Origin: an uncultured candidatus Porisulfidus sp. | GTDB lineage: Bacteria; Pseudomonadota; Gammaproteobacteria; Poriferisulfidales; Poriferisulfidaceae | Direction: 5' to 3' | NCBI GenBank assembly: GCA_965204575.1 | Contig: OZ241993.1 | Coordinates: forward strand, 832,001 to 896,000 | DNA: 64,000 nt | Part shown: piece after piece, positions 1,984 through 44,627 of the stretch | How the letters are laid out: each line of letters opens with the position of its first letter | Numbering within the stretch: position 1 is the first letter of the stretch | Program-made: the position numbers and the translations under genes | The notes under the pieces: model-generated | Seen by the model: the letters and a program-made list of their open reading frames with translations, nothing else | What the model was told of the DNA's origin: nothing | Databases searched by the model: none

Positions 1984-2212
1984 GGGAGGCGCAGTCAGGT
2001 GCGGCGACAGGTCGCCAGCTTGTCCGGGGCCCCGATTTTCCCTTTCGAAGCTCCCGAGGCAAACGGAAATTCTACTCGACCGGCGTGACCGGCTCCTCTA
2101 CGGCGGGATACTTCAAGGTGAGTTCGCCGCCCAGGTCTATGGCGTGCGGGTTCTTTTCGCCCTTCTCCGTCAGGTCGATGGCCACGTGATCGTCGTACTT
2201 GCCCTTGGGGAA

Positions 2213-3472
2213 TTATGTATGAAAATTGGCAGAGGATTCCTCGCCAATCTTCACCATTTTTTGACGCTTCCCAGGCCGACTGTGGCGGGATGCCCCGCCG
2301 GTGTCGCCACCTCCACGTCCAGCCGCCCCATTCCCGAAGGCCAGGATGTTCAATGCGGCGTTCACGTCCGCATTGCCCGCGTGCCCGCAAGCGGTGCACT
2401 TGAAATCTGTTCCATTTCTGTTTTTCTCATCGACATGCCCGCATGAATGACACGTCTGGCTGGTGTACGCCGGAAGCACATGGCGCACTTCCATCTTGTA
2501 GTTCAGGCACAACTCCAGCGTGCCCCAGGCGCTGGCCAGGATCTTCCGGTTCAGAGCCGCTTTCGCTTTTACGTTCCTGCCGGGCTTCTCTTTGGTGCCC
2601 TTGGCCGATTTCGTCATGTTGCCGATGTTCAGCTTCTCGACATAGGCCACATCGTATTCTGACGCAATGCTCTTGCTGACGTGGTGCGCCCAGTTCAACC
2701 GGGCGAAGCGTTCCGCGCGGAACGCTTTCTGCAACTTCACCCTGGTGATCTTCCTGCGGTTGCTCCCTTTCACCTGTCGCGCCATCTTGCGCTGGTACCG
2801 CTTGCGCCTTGCCACCTTCCGCTCCAAGTCCGGGCCCGGGTGCTTCGTGCCGTCCGACAAGACCGCCCACCCGTCCGCGTTCACGTTGCGGTCGATGCCC
2901 ACTTCCCGGATGCTGTGCGGAAGACTCGCTTCCGCCTGGACTTCATAGGCCAGGTAGGCATACCACTTGCCACATTCGTATCTGATCCGGCCGGACTTGA
3001 ACTCGCCGTCCGGGTACGGATTGTTGCCCGCCATCTTCATCCAGCCGACCTTCTGAACGTACAGGCTCTCTCCTGCTACTCGTGCGGATTGATAGTCAAT
3101 CGGAAAACTCGGAATCGTGCTGTACTTGCCGTGAAACTGCGGCAGTTTCCGGTTCAGTTTCCCGCCGGTCTCCCGATCCTTGAAGAACGCCTTGTAGGCT
3201 GTCTCGATGGGCTTCAGGGAGATCCGGACCACCTTGGACGGATAGTCCTGCAGCCACTTTGTCGTCCCGTCATCTCGCCGCATCACGGTGAAGACGTGAC
3301 ACAGGGAATAGTGTCGAAAGTCCGGCTTGATTCCGAATTCGTACTCGCCCCTGAGCTTCCCGACCATGTGGTTCCACACGAAGCGGCAGGCCCCGGCGGT
3401 GCCGTGCAGTTGCTGGTTCTTTCGTGCAGAGCCCGGATGCAGGCGGTAGCGGACGGTGCGGGGGACTTTCAT
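2213..3472 (-). CDS. tnpB: RNA-guided endonuclease TnpB
   Basis: N-terminal YRLHP..GACRFVWN HTH; RuvC I GIDRN; RuvC II VEKLN; Zn ribbon TSQTCHSCG..FKCTACG; RuvC III NADVNAALNIL. The D/E/D triad is intact. Confidence 0.95.
   Translation of the reverse strand: MKVPRTVRYRLHPGSARKNQQLHGTAGACRFVWNHMVGKLRGEYEFGIKPDFRHYSLCHVFTVMRRDDGTTKWLQDYPSKVVRISLKPIETAYKAFFKDRETGGKLNRKLPQFHGKYSTIPSFPIDYQSARVAGESLYVQKVGWMKMAGNNPYPDGEFKSGRIRYECGKWYAYLAYEVQAEASLPHSIREVGIDRNVNADGWAVLSDGTKHPGPDLERKVARRKRYQRKMARQVKGSNRRKITRVKLQKAFRAERFARLNWAHHVSKSIASEYDVAYVEKLNIGNMTKSAKGTKEKPGRNVKAKAALNRKILASAWGTLELCLNYKMEVRHVLPAYTSQTCHSCGHVDEKNRNGTDFKCTACGHAGNADVNAALNILAFGNGAAGRGGGDTGGASRHSRPGKRQKMVKIGEESSANFHT
2215..2360 (-). ncRNA. 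Putative omegaRNA (reRNA) scaffold overlapping the tnpB 3' end
   Basis: TnpB guide scaffolds are known to derive from the element's right end. A strong hairpin TGAAGATTGGC-GAGGAATCCTCT-GCCAATTTTCA lies at 2220-2253. The 5' boundary is a guess. Confidence 0.5.
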
Positions 3473-3517
3473 AGGAAGATTGTCTTCAAGCCTCCCTGTT
3501 TGTCAACTCTCGTACAT
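2215..3517 (-). mobile_element. Non-autonomous TnpB-only insertion element with imperfect TIRs and flanking AATT repeats
   Basis: AATT at 2211-2214 and 3518-3521. Ends read inward as ATGTATGAAAATTGGCAGA and ATGTACGAGAGTTGACAAA (14/19 identical). Interrupts an ORF that is restored on excision. No transposase inside. Confidence 0.8.
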
Positions 3518-4043
3518 AATTCTTGGTGCTTGTATCCTCCCCAGCTTTCCTCCGGGATGTAGCTGGCGTAGTCGTTCTCAATCGTAGCCAGATTAACTTC
3601 GTCGAACAGGTCGGCACCATCCGGCAGCCCCTGGGCATCCTTCTTGCGGTACTCCCGAATCGTCCCGTTGTCCTGCACCTGCCACAGGCCATGCTTGCCT
3701 TCCCCGATCATCGTCATGGTCTGTTCCACCACGTTCACGAAGCGGTAGGTGTAGTTCGTGTTCATGTGTCCAGAGAAAACCGGCAGATGGGGAATGCTGG
3801 AATGCGTCGTCTTGGGACGGCCTTCGCCGACCAGCAACTTCTGCCCGTCATCTCCCCGATCGCCTGGTCGCTCGTGTAGTAATAGGGATCGCCCTTCGTC
3901 AGGTCCTTGATGTGGCCGGCCTCGTCGGCACCCAGCGGGGCGGACGCGATCAGCAACCACGCGCCCGCGAGGCCGAGTGTGGTTGCGTTGGTTGGTTTCA
4001 TGGTTTTACCTCCTGCTACTTTGATTGGTTCAGGGGGAGAAAT

Positions 4044-15909: not shown

Positions 15910-16765
15910 CGGGACGCAAGGTGTCGCGGGTCTTCTTCGCGGTCGTGAACGAGCCTCGCAGCACATCGGACTGGTCGTTGTGCAGGGCATCGATCAGTTC
16001 GCCGATGCGGCCCTGGAATTGCTTCAGGACGGGCGCCAGGTGCTCACGGTTGGCTTGGCAGATGTCGAGCCAGAGTTCCGGGTTGCTGGAGGCAATGCGG
16101 GTGAAGTCGAGCAGGCCGCCTGCGGCATAGCGCTTCAACTCCTCGGCCGGGAACGTGTCGGTCAGGACCTCCATCAGGGCATAGGCGAGCACATGCGGGA
16201 GATGGCTGATGCCTGCGAACAGCGCGTCGTGCGTATCCGCATCCATGCGTTCGACCTGCGCGCCGAGCTGCTCCCACATCCAGCAGATCCGGTCGACTTT
16301 CCCGGAGTCGGTGTTGCTGACCGGGGTCAGCACCACGCGGCGGTCGCGGAACAGGCCGCTGCTGGCATGCTGCGCCCCGCTTTTCTCCGTACCGGAAATC
16401 GGGTGCCCGGGCACGAACCAGGGCGGAACCTGGCCACACGCTTGCTCAATCTCTTGCAGCACGGGCTTCTTGATGCTGCCGACATCGGTGACCACCTGGT
16501 GCTCGGCAATATGCGGCTCCAGGTTCCGGCAGACCTCGGCAATGGCGGCAGGCGGGGTGGCCAGCACGATCAATTCGACCTCTTTGGCCGCAGCCTCGGG
16601 GGTCGGGTGGATTGCATCGATCAAGTCGAGGCCGCGCGCCTGCTCCAGTGCCTCCGAGTCCGAATCGTAGCCGTGGATCGCATGTACGGCCCCGGCTGCC
16701 CGCAGCCCTGCCGCCATGGACCCGCCGATGTGTCCGACTCCGATCAGCGCGAGGGACGTGCTCAT
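15896..16765 (-). CDS. tyrA: Prephenate/arogenate dehydrogenase
   Basis: GVGHIGGS, DVGSIK, HPISGTEKSG, HD..SHLPH, DFTRIASS motifs. Confidence 0.93.
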   Translation of the reverse strand: MSTSLALIGVGHIGGSMAAGLRAAGAVHAIHGYDSDSEALEQARGLDLIDAIHPTPEAAAKEVELIVLATPPAAIAEVCRNLEPHIAEHQVVTDVGSIKKPVLQEIEQACGQVPPWFVPGHPISGTEKSGAQHASSGLFRDRRVVLTPVSNTDSGKVDRICWMWEQLGAQVERMDADTHDALFAGISHLPHVLAYALMEVLTDTFPAEELKRYAAGGLLDFTRIASSNPELWLDICQANREHLAPVLKQFQGRIGELIDALHNDQSDVLRGSFTTAKKTRDTLRPDGHE

Positions 16766-17883
16766 GATGCCCGCCATGCCTGCAACGCGTCGACCAGGGT
16801 TCGGGTCTCCTCGGCGGTGCCGATGGTGCAGCGCAGCCAGTTCGGCAGTTCGTATTCCGGCAGTGCACGCACCAGGATCCCGCGCTCGCGCAGGAAATCC
16901 ACCACGGCCCGGGCCTGCCCGCCGAAGTCCAGGGTCAGGAAATTGCCATGCGTGCCCAGCGCGCGCAGTTCAAGCTCGCGGGCCGTCCTCAGCAGCTGGC
17001 GCATGCCCTGGGCATTGACGGCCCGGCTGTGCGTCACGTGTTCCTCGTCGCCGACGGCGGCCACTGCCGCCTGTTGCGCCAGCGTGTTGACGTTGAAAGG
17101 CTGCCGCACCCGGTTGAGCATCGCGATGACTTCGGGGTGGGCCAGCGCGTAGCCGATGCGCAGGCCGGCCAACCCGAAAATCTTGGAAAACGTCCGGGTC
17201 ACGATCACCTGCGGGTATTCCAGGAACCGCCCGGCCGCCGGGATCGGGTCGCGGTATTCGGCGTAGGCCTCGTCCAGCACGACCAGGACCTGGGGCGGCA
17301 GCGCCTCGATCAAGGCCCGAATCTCGCCGTCTTCCAGCACGGTGCCGGTCGGGTTGTTCGGGTTGGCGATGAACACCACGGCCGTGGTCTCGTCCACGCA
17401 TTCGAGCAGCGCCTTCGGGTCGTGCCCCAGCGGCTGCTCGTGCTCGACCGGGTATGGGGCCGAAATCCGTGCCGTGGCGCCTGCCGCCTGCACCACCAGC
17501 GGGTAGACCACGAAGGCGTGCCGCGCGAACGCGGCGCTGCGGCCCGCCTCCAGGTAGGCGCACGCGACCAGGTCCAGCAAGTCGGAAGAACCATTGCCGA
17601 AGATCAGGCAGTCGGGCGGGCAGTCGTGACGGGCGCTCAGCGCCTCTCTCAACGCGTGCCCGTCGTTGTCGGGGTAGCGGGACAGGTTGGCGGGCTCCCC
17701 CAGGGCGGCCACCGCCTCGGCGGATGGGCCAAGCGGATTTTCGTTGGAGGCCAGGCGGCAGACCTTCTCGTCCACGGTGCTGGGCCGGGCGCCGGGCACG
17801 TAGGGGGCCAGGCCCTGCACGCAGGGGCGTGCGGCCGCGACGATGCGCCGCAATGCCGCGGCATCGGAGTCGGAAGCAGTCAT
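16762..17883 (-). CDS. hisC: Histidinol-phosphate aminotransferase
   Basis: LASNENPLG, NPNNPTG, DEAY, RTFSKIFGLAGLRIGY motifs. Confidence 0.95.
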   Translation of the reverse strand: MTASDSDAAALRRIVAAARPCVQGLAPYVPGARPSTVDEKVCRLASNENPLGPSAEAVAALGEPANLSRYPDNDGHALREALSARHDCPPDCLIFGNGSSDLLDLVACAYLEAGRSAAFARHAFVVYPLVVQAAGATARISAPYPVEHEQPLGHDPKALLECVDETTAVVFIANPNNPTGTVLEDGEIRALIEALPPQVLVVLDEAYAEYRDPIPAAGRFLEYPQVIVTRTFSKIFGLAGLRIGYALAHPEVIAMLNRVRQPFNVNTLAQQAAVAAVGDEEHVTHSRAVNAQGMRQLLRTARELELRALGTHGNFLTLDFGGQARAVVDFLRERGILVRALPEYELPNWLRCTIGTAEETRTLVDALQAWRAS

Positions 17884-34536: not shown

Positions 34537-38997
<4,461 letters not shown>

Positions 38998-43909: not shown

Positions 43910-44305
43910 CTAGGCTTCAGCTTTCCTCGCCAGCGACTGGACGGTTTCCAGCAACGCCCCCGCGAGGGCGAGGGCCGGCTCCCGGTCGAGAGGCTCCACA
44001 TCGGGGTCGACCGGTTGATAACGGAGTTCGCCCGCGTAATCGGTATAGTCCACAAGACCCGAAAACTGCTCCACTTCTTCGCCCCGTGCCGCCAGTTTCT
44101 TCAACAGTGCCCCCAGGTCGTGGGTGAACGGATAAGTCTGGCCGGAAAGGCAAATCCAGGCCTTCAGGCATTTCTCGGCCACCTGCTGCACGACCGAGCC
44201 GAACATCCTGTCGACGAAGATGGAAGGGTCTTCCCGGGCGCGGAGTATGGCCATGTCCTCTTCCGCCACCTGCAGGAGATGGCGGGCCTGCTTAAGGTCG
44301 CTCAT
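43910..44305 (-). CDS. HEPN-domain protein (toxin partner)
   Basis: AEEDM..QQVAEKCLKA..YPFTHDL..ELRY pattern; overlaps the upstream MNT gene. Confidence 0.85.
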   Translation of the reverse strand: MSDLKQARHLLQVAEEDMAILRAREDPSIFVDRMFGSVVQQVAEKCLKAWICLSGQTYPFTHDLGALLKKLAARGEEVEQFSGLVDYTDYAGELRYQPVDPDVEPLDREPALALAGALLETVQSLARKAEA

Positions 44306-44627
44306 AGAGCACCTTGCCTTCCCGCAGGGCACGGGCAAGAACATTGTTCAGGGAGTCGCGCCAGTATTCGACATCCTCAAGGCTGAACACCAGGATGTCC
44401 TTGGGGACGTCGAAGTCTTCTACCGCCTTGCGCACCCGGATGGTCTCGGAACGCTTACACCGGCCCTTGCCGAACGGCTCGGTCTCGATGACGATCAGGT
44501 CCACGTCCGAATCCTCCCTCGCGTCGCCGCGCGCATGCGATCCGAACAGGATGATCTGCTCCGGGTCCACCTCGTCCACGATGGCCTGGGCCATCTGCTG
44601 GAGAAATTCCTTGTTCACCTGGCTCAT
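44292..44627 (-). CDS. Minimal nucleotidyltransferase (MNT)
   Basis: IILFGSHARGDAREDSDVDLIVI..REGKVLYE. Confidence 0.9.
   Translation of the reverse strand: MSQVNKEFLQQMAQAIVDEVDPEQIILFGSHARGDAREDSDVDLIVIETEPFGKGRCKRSETIRVRKAVEDFDVPKDILVFSLEDVEYWRDSLNNVLARALREGKVLYERP

What the first reader, a model, noticed from the sequence alone, without database searches (positions are those of the whole stretch)
2211..3521. Transposase-less TnpB element bounded by inverted repeats and an AATT duplication: not IS200/IS605-like
Seen: the 1303-bp element (2215-3517) sits in GAATTC with AATT on both sides. Its ends are imperfect 19-bp inverted repeats (ATGTACGAGAGTTGACAAA vs ATGTATGAAAATTGGCAGA; 14/19, all mismatches transitions). 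Among the junctions tried, only the symmetric GAA|TTC one restores the host ORF; a TTAT-target IS605-style junction did not. Known: IS200/IS605 elements have no TIRs or TSDs and use subterminal hairpins at both ends; IS607 elements use a serine recombinase with a GG core. Inference: a catalytically intact TnpB is riding a TIR element mobilised in trans by a DDE transposase, or by a recombinase acting on a palindromic AT/AATT core. This would be a bacterial parallel to Fanzor capture by DDE transposons. The data cannot separate a 4-bp TSD, a 2-bp AT core or a blunt insertion.
Basis: partly seen in the sequence, partly recalled or inferred. Interest (0 to 1): 0.82.

Follow-up and report, generated by a model that had tools for sequence, protein, structure and literature searches.

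The report
TnpB riding an IS1595-type transposon
A 1.3-kb mobile element that carries only the RNA-guided nuclease gene tnpB has the inverted-repeat ends and 8-bp target duplications of an IS1595-family cut-and-paste transposon, so it is a hitch-hiker moved by another element's transposase and not a classical IS605-type element.

Summary
The sequence facts hold: AATT on both sides, and a 14/19 inverted repeat. The boundaries and the junction argument do not. Six sister copies in the same genome and 16 relatives stay conserved 7 bp further out on each side. The element is therefore window 2208-3524 (1317 bp), with ends GGGAATTATGTA...TACATAATTCCC, and AATT is positions 4-7 of the inverted repeat, not a duplication.

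Sister copies carry 8-bp target duplications. Two were confirmed against empty sites in sister species (TGGATATA, ATGTCTTC). The window's copy has none, because 67 nt of host DNA are missing at the junction, so the "restored ORF" is a coincidence.

No Y1 TnpA was found in 16 genomes of the genus, and no serine recombinase in this genome. Ends of the same kind bound elements that encode IS1595-family DDE transposases in sister species; one is 25/26 identical to a sister TnpB copy's end. The same holds in distant phyla. This genome keeps only a frameshifted IS1595 transposase.

DDE-linked TnpBs with inverted ends were published in 2023, so this is a new member of a known kind. How a nuclease that normally needs a fixed target-adjacent motif (TAM) fits a non-specific 8-bp-duplicating transposase remains open.

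The parts
2208..3524 (-). Whole non-autonomous element (1317 bp): IS1595-type TIRs enclosing tnpB and its predicted omega-RNA. No transposase gene.
   Evidence: Host homology to 8 orthologues stops exactly at 2207/2208 and 3524/3525. The conservation limits of 22 copies end at ...AATTCCC. Sister copies have the same ends with 8-bp TSDs.
3496..3524 (-). Left-end TIR in tnpB orientation: AAGAATTATGTACGAGAGTTGACAAAC... The tip is AAG instead of the family's GGG.
   Evidence: 19/26 identical to this copy's right TIR and 22/26 to the left TIR of the copy at G000 1618196-1619511.
2208..2236 (+). Right-end TIR, shown as it reads on the + strand: GGGAATTATGTATGAAAATTGGCAGAGG...
   Evidence: the first 26 nt are 20/26 identical to the TIR of an IS1595-transposase element of sister species G042, against 9/26 to each end of the resident ISL3.
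2213..3472 (-). tnpB ORF, 419 aa. RuvC D-E-D residues and the CxxC...CxxC zinc finger are present. The last ~35 codons run through the predicted omega-RNA and end at a TAA inside the TIR.
   Evidence: In the alignment to ISDra2 TnpB (8bf8/8exa), query residues 9-386 align and D194, the E in VAYVEKLN and the D in NADVNAALNI fall on the chain's catalytic positions. The catalytic numbering of ISDra2 is recalled, not from a call.
2208..2359 (-). Predicted omega-RNA scaffold: from the NAALNI codons to the element's last base, including a long terminal hairpin at about 2215-2257 that uses the inner part of the TIR.
   Evidence: This is the most conserved stretch of the element (mean pairwise identity 0.92-0.93, against 0.65-0.89 in most of the ORF). 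RNA fold -65.9 kcal/mol, z -3.2, 0 of 200 shuffles as good. Consensus fold of 22 copies has 35 pairs, 4 of them with compensatory changes, three in the terminal hairpin. No Rfam family matches. It has not been shown to be transcribed.
2188..2207 (-). Flank that would supply the guide of the omega-RNA if it is read through the right end, as in other TnpB systems.
   Evidence: Inference only, by analogy with IS200/IS605 TnpB and with Fanzor elements in TIR/TSD transposons (PMC10711439, passages seen).
3525..4001 (-). N-terminal part of the interrupted host gene (signal-peptide protein of unknown family). It has a further frameshift between about 3760 and 3960.
   Evidence: The orthologues have open frames of 485-545 aa. 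The intact orthologue has no Pfam match.
2073..2207 (-). C-terminal remnants of the same host gene. About 40 nt match the orthologue just past the insertion point, then about 763 nt are missing (junction near 2168-2175), then comes the last ~114 nt of the gene.

Best explanation
The feature is a non-autonomous member of an IS1595-family (ISXO2-like DDE) transposon lineage. The transposase gene is replaced by a passenger: a catalytically intact tnpB plus the RNA encoded over and after its 3' end.

SHOWN
- The element is bounded by imperfect terminal inverted repeats that begin GGGAATTATGTA.
- Sister copies are flanked by 8-bp, AT-leaning target-site duplications.
- Empty sites in sister species contain one copy of the 8-mer.
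- Elements with the same kind of ends in sister species, and in two other phyla, encode IS1595-type transposases.
- This genome has only a frameshifted IS1595 transposase.

INFERRED
- The element inserted by DDE-type staggered cutting and gap repair, catalysed in trans by such a transposase.
- The window's copy later lost, or never had, a clean junction. 67 nt of host DNA and the duplication are missing, and 2 of the 3 G's of the left tip are changed.
- It is now probably immobile, although its tnpB is intact.
- TnpB makes an omega-RNA whose scaffold ends with the right TIR and whose guide is the 8-bp duplication plus the flank.

What TnpB does for a transposon whose transposase has no fixed target motif is not explained by the IS605 homing model.
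For: 1. Boundaries and TSDs
- Alignments of the 7 own copies and of 22 copies lose all similarity right after ...AATTCCC.
- For the copy at G000 443457-444770, four of eight sister-species loci examined show ...AGAAGG TGGATATA GGGTGAA... with a single TGGATATA, which is duplicated in G000.
- For the copy at 261520-262786, six of nine loci show a contiguous empty site. Four of them carry a single exact ATGTCTTC.
- The automatic scoring of 22 elements gave 7 with 8/8 and 6 with 7/8. The chance of 7/8 or better is about 4e-4 per site.
- A 565-bp protein-less derivative (16578-17142) has the same ends and the duplication AAAATCGC.

2. Partner transposase
- Sister species G042 has a 2680-bp element with 37-nt TIRs and TSD GGCCATTT. 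It encodes DDE_Tnp_IS1595 (1.3e-46) plus Zn_ribbon_IS1595.
- The first 26 nt of its TIR are 25/26 identical to both ends of the TnpB copy at 435784-437062, and 20/26 to the window's right end.
- G047 has a 1271-bp IS1595-type IS (TIR GGGAATTATAGCGATTGTTTGACAA, TSD ATTTCGGA). G044 has a third such element.
- In a Rhodothermales genome whose TnpB homologues are 40% identical, an element carrying an IS1595 transposase and a methylase has TIRs that match the TnpB elements' left ends over 27 nt.
- The tip motif is 10-fold enriched there: 67 sites against 6 for the reversed control.
- PF12762 is present in 13 of 15 sister species.

3. Other mobilisers are absent
- Y1_Tnp: 0 of 16 genomes of the genus.
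- Resolvase: 0 in the own genome.
- All 22 aligned close homologues sit in 1.27-1.40-kb elements, which leave no room for a second gene.

4. TnpB itself: intact ORF, domains and catalytic residues.
Against: - The window's own copy has no TSD (5/8) and a deviant left tip (AAG). Its membership therefore rests on its sister copies.
- The inner part of its TIR (TGAAAATTGGCA / CGAGAGTTGACA) is only 18-21/26 like the nearest IS1595-transposase TIRs found. No transposase-bearing element with exactly this TIR variant was found.
- No intact IS1595 transposase exists in this genome. The remnant near 1081541-1082500 reads in three frames.
- Eight of the 25 close elements looked at have no convincing TSD.
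- No element was seen that carries both the transposase and tnpB: 0 of 19 loci.
- Transposition was not observed. Copies are 71-90% identical to the window's copy, which speaks for old activity.
- The 8-bp TSD as a general property of the IS1595 family is recalled from ISfinder and comes from no call. Here it is shown only for the elements examined.
Confidence: 0.85

Rival explanations
1. The resident ISL3-family transposase moves the element. It has three identical 1348-bp copies in this genome and also makes 8-bp duplications.
For: ISL3 is the only intact DDE transposase in this genome that makes 8-bp TSDs. A third TnpB family in the same genome does carry ISL3-like TIRs: right end GGCGCTTCACGAATTTGTGT against GGCGCATCACGGTTTTGTGT of the IS, with TSDs ATAATAGG and CTTCTAAA. 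The tips share the form GGnnnTT.
Against: The window element's TIRs match each end of the ISL3 IS at only 5-9 of 26 positions, against 20/26 for an IS1595 element. ISL3 elements of two sister species and of the Rhodothermales genome all have the GTGTGGAA or GGTGGGT type of TIR, not GGGAATTAT. A Caldilineaceae genome with TnpB elements of this kind has no ISL3 match at all.
Confidence: 0.06
2. It is an IS200/IS605 (IS1341-group) element moved as single-stranded DNA by a Y1 TnpA supplied in trans. The inverted repeats would be incidental or RNA-related.
For: The protein is a typical TnpB. There is a strong subterminal hairpin at the right end.
Against: 8-bp TSDs are verified by empty sites, which peel-and-paste transposition does not make. 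There is no conserved tetra- or pentanucleotide 5' of the left end; I read the six bases before the duplication in the 22 rows and saw no consensus. The left and right ends are inverted, not direct. Y1_Tnp is found in 0 of 16 genomes of the genus.
Confidence: 0.03
3. One reading: insertion into GAATTC with a 4-bp AATT duplication, a 2-bp AT crossover by a recombinase at a palindromic core, or a blunt GAA|TTC insertion.
Against: AATT lies inside the conserved TIR and is replaced in other copies. Orthologues show that GAATTC never existed at this site: 67 other nucleotides lie there in 8 of 8. Empty sites of two sister copies define 8-bp duplications outside GGG...CCC. No Resolvase-domain protein is found in the genome.
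Confidence: 0.02
4. TnpB itself (an RNase-H-fold nuclease) is the transposase of these TIR elements.
For: This genome has about 16 TnpB loci with TIRs and TSDs but no intact IS1595 transposase.
Against: The same ends also bound a protein-less 565-bp element, and a 1966-bp element whose two ORFs have no Pfam match and look like a restriction-modification pair. Elsewhere they bound elements with IS1595 transposases plus DNA methylases. The ends therefore do not need TnpB. No TnpB is known to transpose DNA (established knowledge).
Confidence: 0.02

Closest known systems
DDE-transposase-associated TnpB branches (DDE-1 to DDE-6) of Altae-Tran et al. 2023, PNAS (PMC10691335)
   Same: TnpB inside elements with inverted terminal repeats. 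The 3' end of tnpB lies within 250 bp of the transposon end. Solo TnpBs are flanked by ends nearly identical to those of transposase-bearing elements, and are taken as mobilised in trans (section 9 read).
   Different: The main text names only IS630 (DDE-6) as a partner family. Here the partner is IS1595, and ISL3 for another TnpB family of the same genome. Whether DDE-1 to DDE-5 include these families is in supplements I could not open. Here the TSDs and empty sites are documented copy by copy.
IS1595 family 'transporter IS' and transposase-less derivatives (Siguier, Gagnevin & Chandler 2009, cited in PMC3129680)
   Same: TIR-bounded elements with 8-bp duplications and IS1595 DDE transposases. 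The family is noted for copies with passenger genes (passage seen in PMC3129680). The relatives found here carry DNA methylases as passengers.
   Different: The window's element has no transposase at all, and its passenger is an RNA-guided nuclease with its RNA. The 2009 paper itself was not read.
Fanzor elements in eukaryotic cut-and-paste transposons (Bao & Jurka 2013; Yoon et al. 2023, PMC10711439)
   Same: A TnpB-family nuclease as sole gene of a non-autonomous TIR/TSD transposon. The TIR falls within the guide-RNA scaffold and the TSD lies next to it (passages seen).
   Different: This element is bacterial, carries a canonical TnpB (aligns to ISDra2 TnpB over residues 9-386), and has a different transposase superfamily.
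IS1341 group of IS200/IS605 (tnpB-only elements)
   Same: A single tnpB gene of about 1.3 kb in multiple diverged copies per genome.
   Different: IS200/IS605 elements have no TIRs or TSDs and insert 3' of a fixed short motif (established knowledge). Here TIRs and 8-bp TSDs are present, and no Y1 TnpA is found in the genus.

Membership tests
IS1595 family (as a non-autonomous derivative) | Terminal inverted repeats of the kind found on elements that encode DDE_Tnp_IS1595 transposases | tested here: met
   The tip GGGAATTAT is shared with IS1595-transposase elements of G042, G044 and G047 (same genus) and of G053 and G054 (other phyla). Identity is 20/26 (window right end) and 25/26 (sister TnpB copy) to the G042 element.
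IS1595 family (as a non-autonomous derivative) | 8-bp target-site duplication | tested here: inconclusive
   Met for sister copies: two by empty sites, and 13 of 22 with 7/8 or better by the automatic routine. Not met at the window's own copy (5/8), where 67 nt of host DNA are missing.
IS1595 family (as a non-autonomous derivative) | Encodes a DDE transposase with the ISXO2-like domain and an N-terminal zinc ribbon | tested here: not met
   The only ORF is tnpB. It is therefore not an IS1595-family IS proper but a transposase-less relative of one.
IS1595 family (as a non-autonomous derivative) | Mobilised by an IS1595 transposase | not testable with these tools
   Needs a transposition assay. 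This genome has only a frameshifted transposase.
IS200/IS605 family, IS1341 group | No TIRs and no TSD; insertion 3' of a conserved tetra- or pentanucleotide | tested here: not met
   TIRs and 8-bp TSDs are present. I saw no conserved motif before the left end when reading the rows.
IS200/IS605 family, IS1341 group | A Y1 (HUH) TnpA available in the genome or on related copies | tested here: not met
   PF01797 is found in 0 of 16 genomes of the genus, while the control rings in 6 of 14 reference genomes.
IS607 family | Serine-recombinase TnpA; no TIRs or TSDs | tested here: not met
   PF00239 is absent from the own genome. TIRs and TSDs are present.
TnpB RNA-guided nucleases (OMEGA) | HTH/WED-RuvC-zinc-finger architecture with an intact D-E-D triad | tested here: met
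   Three Pfam domains. Alignment to ISDra2 TnpB places D, E and D at the aligned catalytic positions, and both CxxC pairs are present. The residue numbering of ISDra2 is recalled.
TnpB RNA-guided nucleases (OMEGA) | Omega-RNA encoded over the 3' end of tnpB and ending at the transposon's right end | tested here: inconclusive
   The strongest nucleotide conservation lies there. The fold is stable (z -3.2). There is a hairpin with compensatory changes. There is no Rfam match and no expression data.
TnpB RNA-guided nucleases (OMEGA) | A fixed TAM that equals the transposase's target motif | tested here: not met
   Reading the 22 rows, I found no conserved bases before or within the 8-bp duplication. 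The TAM was not measured.

The most novel reading that the evidence does not exclude
In this small symbiont genome, tnpB plus omega-RNA cassettes have been taken up by two different DDE transposon families: IS1595 for the window's lineage and a 46%-identical one, and ISL3 for a third. Both families insert without a fixed target motif. The IS605 logic, in which the TAM equals the transposase's target so that the nuclease re-cuts the emptied donor site, cannot then hold. These TnpBs would have to work with a very relaxed TAM or none, or take the TAM from the TIR tip, or serve the transposon in a different way. That would be a mode of transposon-nuclease cooperation not yet described for bacteria.
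Probability: 0.2. Interest if true: 0.75.

Novelty: new member of a known kind. Interest (0 to 1): 0.5.

Why it matters
- It corrects a tempting misreading: a palindromic AATT 'duplication' that is really part of the inverted repeat.
- It gives a clean, copy-by-copy documented bacterial case of a canonical, apparently active TnpB living as the sole passenger of a DDE cut-and-paste transposon. The partner family is identified, empty sites are in hand, and a protein-less derivative and methylase-carrying relatives with the same kind of ends are known.
- It is a natural test bed for two open questions: what TnpB does for transposons that do not excise scarlessly next to a fixed motif, and how the guide RNA scaffold coexists with a transposase-binding TIR.
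- The element family has spread among unrelated bacteria. By the titles of the related records these are uncultured MAGs of Chromatiales/Candidatus Porisulfidus, other Gammaproteobacteria, Caldilineaceae, Rhodothermales and Pseudomonadales. That makes it a marker of horizontal transfer.
- For genome annotation, such elements should not be filed under IS200/IS605.

Tried and rejected
- ISL3 as partner. It was suggested by the 8-bp AT-rich TSDs and the GG tips, and an intact ISL3 IS is present. I rejected it for the window's lineage because the TIRs do not match (5-9/26), but kept it for a different TnpB family.
- ISL3 next to TnpB relatives. tblastn with the ISL3 transposase against the 51 related loci hit only L129, a broken copy beside a partial TnpB.
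- Host-gene frame as a junction test. Rejected, because the gene carries a 67-nt gap, a ~763-nt deletion and a frameshift.
- Rfam search of 2000-3700: no match at E up to 1.
- Pfam on the intact host orthologue: nothing.
- Pfam on the two ORFs of the 1966-bp element at 585386-587351: nothing. Their reading as a methylase/nuclease pair rests only on an NPPW motif that I saw in the translation.
- Automatic TIR finding gave spurious GC-rich pairs for L086, L093, L104, L113 and L120. L086 and L093 were re-read by eye: L086 is ambiguous and L093 has no TSD.
- The genome-wide TSD+TIR scan returned 46 pairs. I take 11 as real elements (3 ISL3, 3+1+3 TnpB, 1 cargo element). The other 35 are GC-rich pairs at the 14-16/20 threshold that I did not examine one by one.
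- Literature. 'TnpB'+'ISL3' gave 14 papers and 'IS1595'+'TnpB' gave 9. From the listings alone, none appears to report such an association. A third search added nothing.
- Not tried: expression data (look-up of sequencing runs, read laying), structure prediction, and a TnpB phylogeny.
Full report
WHAT IS THERE

Window 2213-3472 (-) is an uninterrupted 419-aa ORF. It has the three TnpB domains: HTH_OrfB_IS605 (5.6e-06), OrfB_IS605 (5.5e-12) and Cas12f1-like_TNB (3.6e-17). Aligned to ISDra2 TnpB (8bf8/8exa, E 7e-25, residues 9-386), it keeps an Asp, a Glu and an Asp at the chain's catalytic positions and both CxxC pairs. The ISDra2 residue numbers are recalled.

AATT lies at 2211-2214 and 3518-3521, and the 19-nt arms match 14/19 with only transitions. 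On its own the repeat is not remarkable. It is the top inverted pair of 54 in the region (22 nt, 82%), but internal pairs of 20-22 nt at 75-80% follow it.

THE OTHER COPIES MOVE THE BOUNDARIES

The window lies in a single-contig genome of 1.82 Mb (G000). That genome holds seven full-length copies of this element at 71-100% nucleotide identity, plus a fragment, and about nine more distant TnpB loci. Five of the seven tnpB frames are open. Two are broken near residue 350.

Aligned in tnpB orientation, all seven copies stay similar up to ...ATAATTCCC at the right end and then diverge. Most start GGGAATT at the left end. The same holds when 16 relatives from other genomes are added.

AATT is therefore positions 4-7 of a terminal inverted repeat. 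Because it is self-complementary, it appears on the same strand at both ends. Copies with GGGGATTAC, GGGAGTTAT/GGGATTTAT or GGGACTTAT tips lack it.

TARGET DUPLICATIONS OF 8 BP, PROVEN BY EMPTY SITES

Outside GGG...CCC the copies carry 8-bp direct repeats.
- Copy at G000 443457-444770: G000 reads AGAAGG-TGGATATA-[element]-TGGATATA-GGGTGAA. Four of the eight sister-species loci examined have the two flanks contiguous, with one TGGATATA. One has a different 329-nt stretch, one is too diverged, and two gave no paired match.
- Copy at 261520-262786: six of nine loci are contiguous empty sites. Four carry a single exact ATGTCTTC and two a diverged version. In three loci only one flank matched. Here the bases after the right repeat (TTT) differ from the element's first bases (GGG), so the duplication is exactly 8 bp.
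- Automatic scoring of 22 elements gave 7 with 8/8, 6 with 7/8, 2 with 6/8 and 7 with 5/8 or less.
- Two of the low scores are mis-registrations. L004 is 8/8. L091 is 8/8 by eye once a 2-nt deletion in its left tip is allowed for.
- Three further elements that the routine did not take (L007, L086, L093) show no clean duplication.
- In all, about 15 of 25 elements have 7/8 or better, where chance gives about 4e-4 per site.
- The duplicated 8-mers are AT-leaning for 60%-GC genomes and share no motif. I also saw no motif in the six bases before them when reading the rows.

THE WINDOW'S OWN JUNCTION

The interrupted host gene is intact in 8 of 15 sister species and in one other genome of the order. 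All eight same-genus orthologues read ...TACAAGCACC + 67 nt + CAAGGGCAAGTACGAC.... G000 reads ...TACAAGCACC + [AAGAATTATG...CATAATTCCC] + CAAGGGCAAGTACGAC....

Host homology therefore ends exactly at the edges of a 1317-bp element (2208-3524). 67 nt of host DNA are missing and there is no duplication (5/8). The left tip is AAG rather than GGG.

GAATTC never existed there.

The gene also has a ~763-nt deletion a little further on (junction near 2168-2175) and a frameshift in its first part. Adjacent deletions are a common by-product of DDE transposition (established knowledge), but the history of this junction cannot be reconstructed.

WHO MOVES IT

There is no Y1 TnpA in any of the 16 genomes of the genus (the control rings in 6 of 14 reference genomes). 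There is no Resolvase-domain protein in G000.

By repeat analysis and Pfam, G000's transposases are:
- an ISL3-family IS: 1348 bp, three identical copies, TSDs AAATGTTC, CCTAAAGT and AATCTATT;
- two repeat families whose longest ORFs I read by eye as IS110-type transposases (no domain search was run on them);
- an element with a DDE_Tnp_1_4 transposase.

The ISL3 TIRs (GGCGCATCACGGTTTTGTGTGGAA / GGGTCTTCACGGAATTGTGTGGAA) fit a different TnpB family of this genome (see the notes). They match the window's element at only 5-9 of 26 positions.

The matching partner turned up elsewhere. In a Rhodothermales genome and a Caldilineaceae genome the TnpB homologues are ~40% identical and also sit between GGGAATTATAT- or GGGGCTTATAT-type TIRs, with 8-bp TSDs that I read from the flanks printed (AAAACAAT, ATTTATTT, AAATGAAT). 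The tip motif is strongly enriched there (67 against 6, and 30 against 3, for a reversed control). The longer TIR pairs enclose IS1595-family transposases (DDE_Tnp_IS1595 at 6e-41, 7e-40 and 3e-37, with the zinc ribbon) plus DNA methylases. One has TIRs that match the left ends of the TnpB elements of the same genome over 27 nt.

In the window's own genus, PF12762 is present in 13 of 15 sister species:
- G042 has a 2680-bp element with 37-nt TIRs GGGAATTATGTAGCAAAATCTGCAAGCGCAGGTTTCA and TSD GGCCATTT. It encodes an IS1595 transposase (1.3e-46) and a methylase-HNH protein.
- G047 has a minimal 1271-bp IS (TIR GGGAATTATAGCGATTGTTTGACAA, TSD ATTTCGGA).
- G044 has a third such element.

The G042 TIR is 25/26 identical to both ends of G000's TnpB copy at 435784-437062. 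That copy's TnpB is 92% identical to the window's over residues 1-352. The same TIR is 20/26 identical to the window's right end.

The two TIR variants in this TnpB lineage (...TGAAAGTTGACA and ...GCAAAATCYGCAAG) always change on both ends together. This is what transposase-binding ends should do.

G000 itself keeps only a decayed IS1595-plus-methylase element near 1081541-1083000. Its transposase reads in three frames and its tip is GTGAATTATAAAG.

None of 19 loci with IS1595 transposases or long TIR pairs holds both a transposase and tnpB inside one TIR pair. All 22 aligned TnpB elements are 1267-1398 bp. TnpB therefore replaces the transposase rather than joining it.

HOW IT MOST LIKELY WORKS

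Shown: TIRs, 8-bp duplications, empty sites, and a cognate transposase family on like-ended elements.

Inferred: insertion by staggered DDE cleavage and gap repair, catalysed in trans. Present immobility of the window's copy, given its damaged tip, the missing duplication and the lack of an intact transposase in the genome. Copies 71-90% identical to the window's copy point to old activity, in contrast to the three identical ISL3 copies.

The tnpB 3' end and the sequence after it are the most conserved part of the element (0.92-0.93 mean pairwise identity). The last 152 nt fold well as RNA (-65.9 kcal/mol, z -3.2, 0 of 200 shuffles). The consensus fold of 22 copies has 35 pairs. Four show compensatory changes, three of them in a terminal hairpin that pairs the inner TIR with an upstream complement in all three TIR variants.

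I read this as the omega-RNA scaffold, ending with the TIR as in Fanzor elements of TIR/TSD transposons (PMC10711439, passages seen). The duplication plus the flank would be the guide. It is not shown to be transcribed, and Rfam has no match.

Unexplained: IS605-type homing needs a TAM equal to the transposase's target motif. Here neither the duplication nor the bases before it are conserved.

COMPARISON WITH WHAT IS KNOWN

Altae-Tran et al. 2023 (PMC10691335; section 9 read, other passages seen) report DDE-associated TnpB branches with inverted terminal repeats, and solo TnpBs with ends nearly identical to transposase-bearing elements. The main text names only IS630.

IS1595 is cited as the family that blurred the line between IS and transposon through passenger genes (PMC3129680, passage seen).

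Searches for TnpB with ISL3, with IS1595, and with DDE/non-autonomous terms gave only co-mentions in unrelated papers, judged from the listings.

The thing is therefore a new, well-documented member of a known kind. Its AATT mechanism and its novelty claim do not.

Noticed in passing
G000:C1 105881-107336, 163657-165115, 410088-411537, 1158419-1159879, 1453214-1454671, 1468268-1469726 (loci L028-L034); outside the window: A third TnpB family (37-42% identical to the window's) sits between TIRs that look like those of the resident ISL3 IS. By eye, its right end matches the ISL3 left end at 17 of 20 positions. TSDs are CTTCTAAA and ATAATAGG (perfect) and AATTAGG(A/T). This is a second DDE family carrying TnpB in the same genome, with its intact transposase present in three identical copies (36848-38195, 236196-237543, 396974-398321).
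   Followed up: partly
G000:C1 226531-227949, 266612-268029, about 362140-363560 (L025-L027); outside the window: A second TnpB family (42-54% identical) also has GGGAATT-type ends (GGGAATTGTATACGATAATCCGCAA) and 8-bp TSDs (CTATAAAT, perfect). It seems to belong to the same IS1595-type chassis.
   Followed up: partly
G000:C1 585386-587351 (L154): A 1966-bp element with GGGGATTACATAGATAACTTGACA / GGGAATTACATACTTTAGTTGACA ends and a perfect TSD TCGAATTT. It carries two ORFs (354 and 228 aa) with no Pfam match. The larger has an NPPW motif, so this may be a methylase/nuclease pair. An extra internal end at about 585597 makes the left 212 bp look like a nested miniature element.
   Followed up: partly
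G000:C1 16578-17142 (L156) and 395874: A 565-bp protein-less element with GCAAAATCC-type IS1595 ends and TSD AAAATCGC. A further solo end of the same type lies at 395874, 1.1 kb upstream of an ISL3 copy.
   Followed up: partly
G000:C1 about 1081541-1083000 (L176): A decayed IS1595-type element. The tip is GTGAATTATAAAGAAAGGTTGATGA, the transposase reads in three frames, and it is followed by a gene with a DPPY methylase motif. It is the only IS1595 transposase trace in this genome.
   Followed up: partly
window 2073-2207 and 3525-4001: The host gene hit by the element is a pseudogene several times over: a 67-nt gap at the insertion, a ~763-nt deletion and a frameshift. Its intact orthologue (open frames of 485-545 aa, signal peptide) is present in 8 of 15 sister species and matches no Pfam family.
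   Followed up: partly
L158, L159 (G053), L161 (G054), L164 (G042), L168 (G044): IS1595-type elements with these ends regularly carry a DNA methylase next to the transposase: N6_N4_Mtase, N6_Mtase, once fused to HNH and once to a T5orf172 domain. Methylases and TnpB thus appear as alternative passengers of one transposon chassis.
   Followed up: partly
G000:C1 1066530-1068416, 1674005-1675889, 342990-344118; 24145-25603, 713404-714859; 1241919-1243330, 1813850-1815261: Other repeated elements of the genome: an 1887-bp IS with a DDE_Tnp_1_4 transposase (two full copies and a partial one), and two repeat families whose longest ORFs look like IS110-type transposases by eye.
   Followed up: partly
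window 44255-44620 (G000:C1 876255-876620): A 366-bp stretch that is repeated elsewhere in the genome at 80% identity or more (self-BLAST). I did not look at what it is.
   Followed up: no
L157 and L160: In the Rhodothermales and Caldilineaceae genomes, some TnpB elements of this kind are themselves interrupted by other ISs (DDE_Tnp_ISAZ013, DDE_Tnp_1).
   Followed up: no
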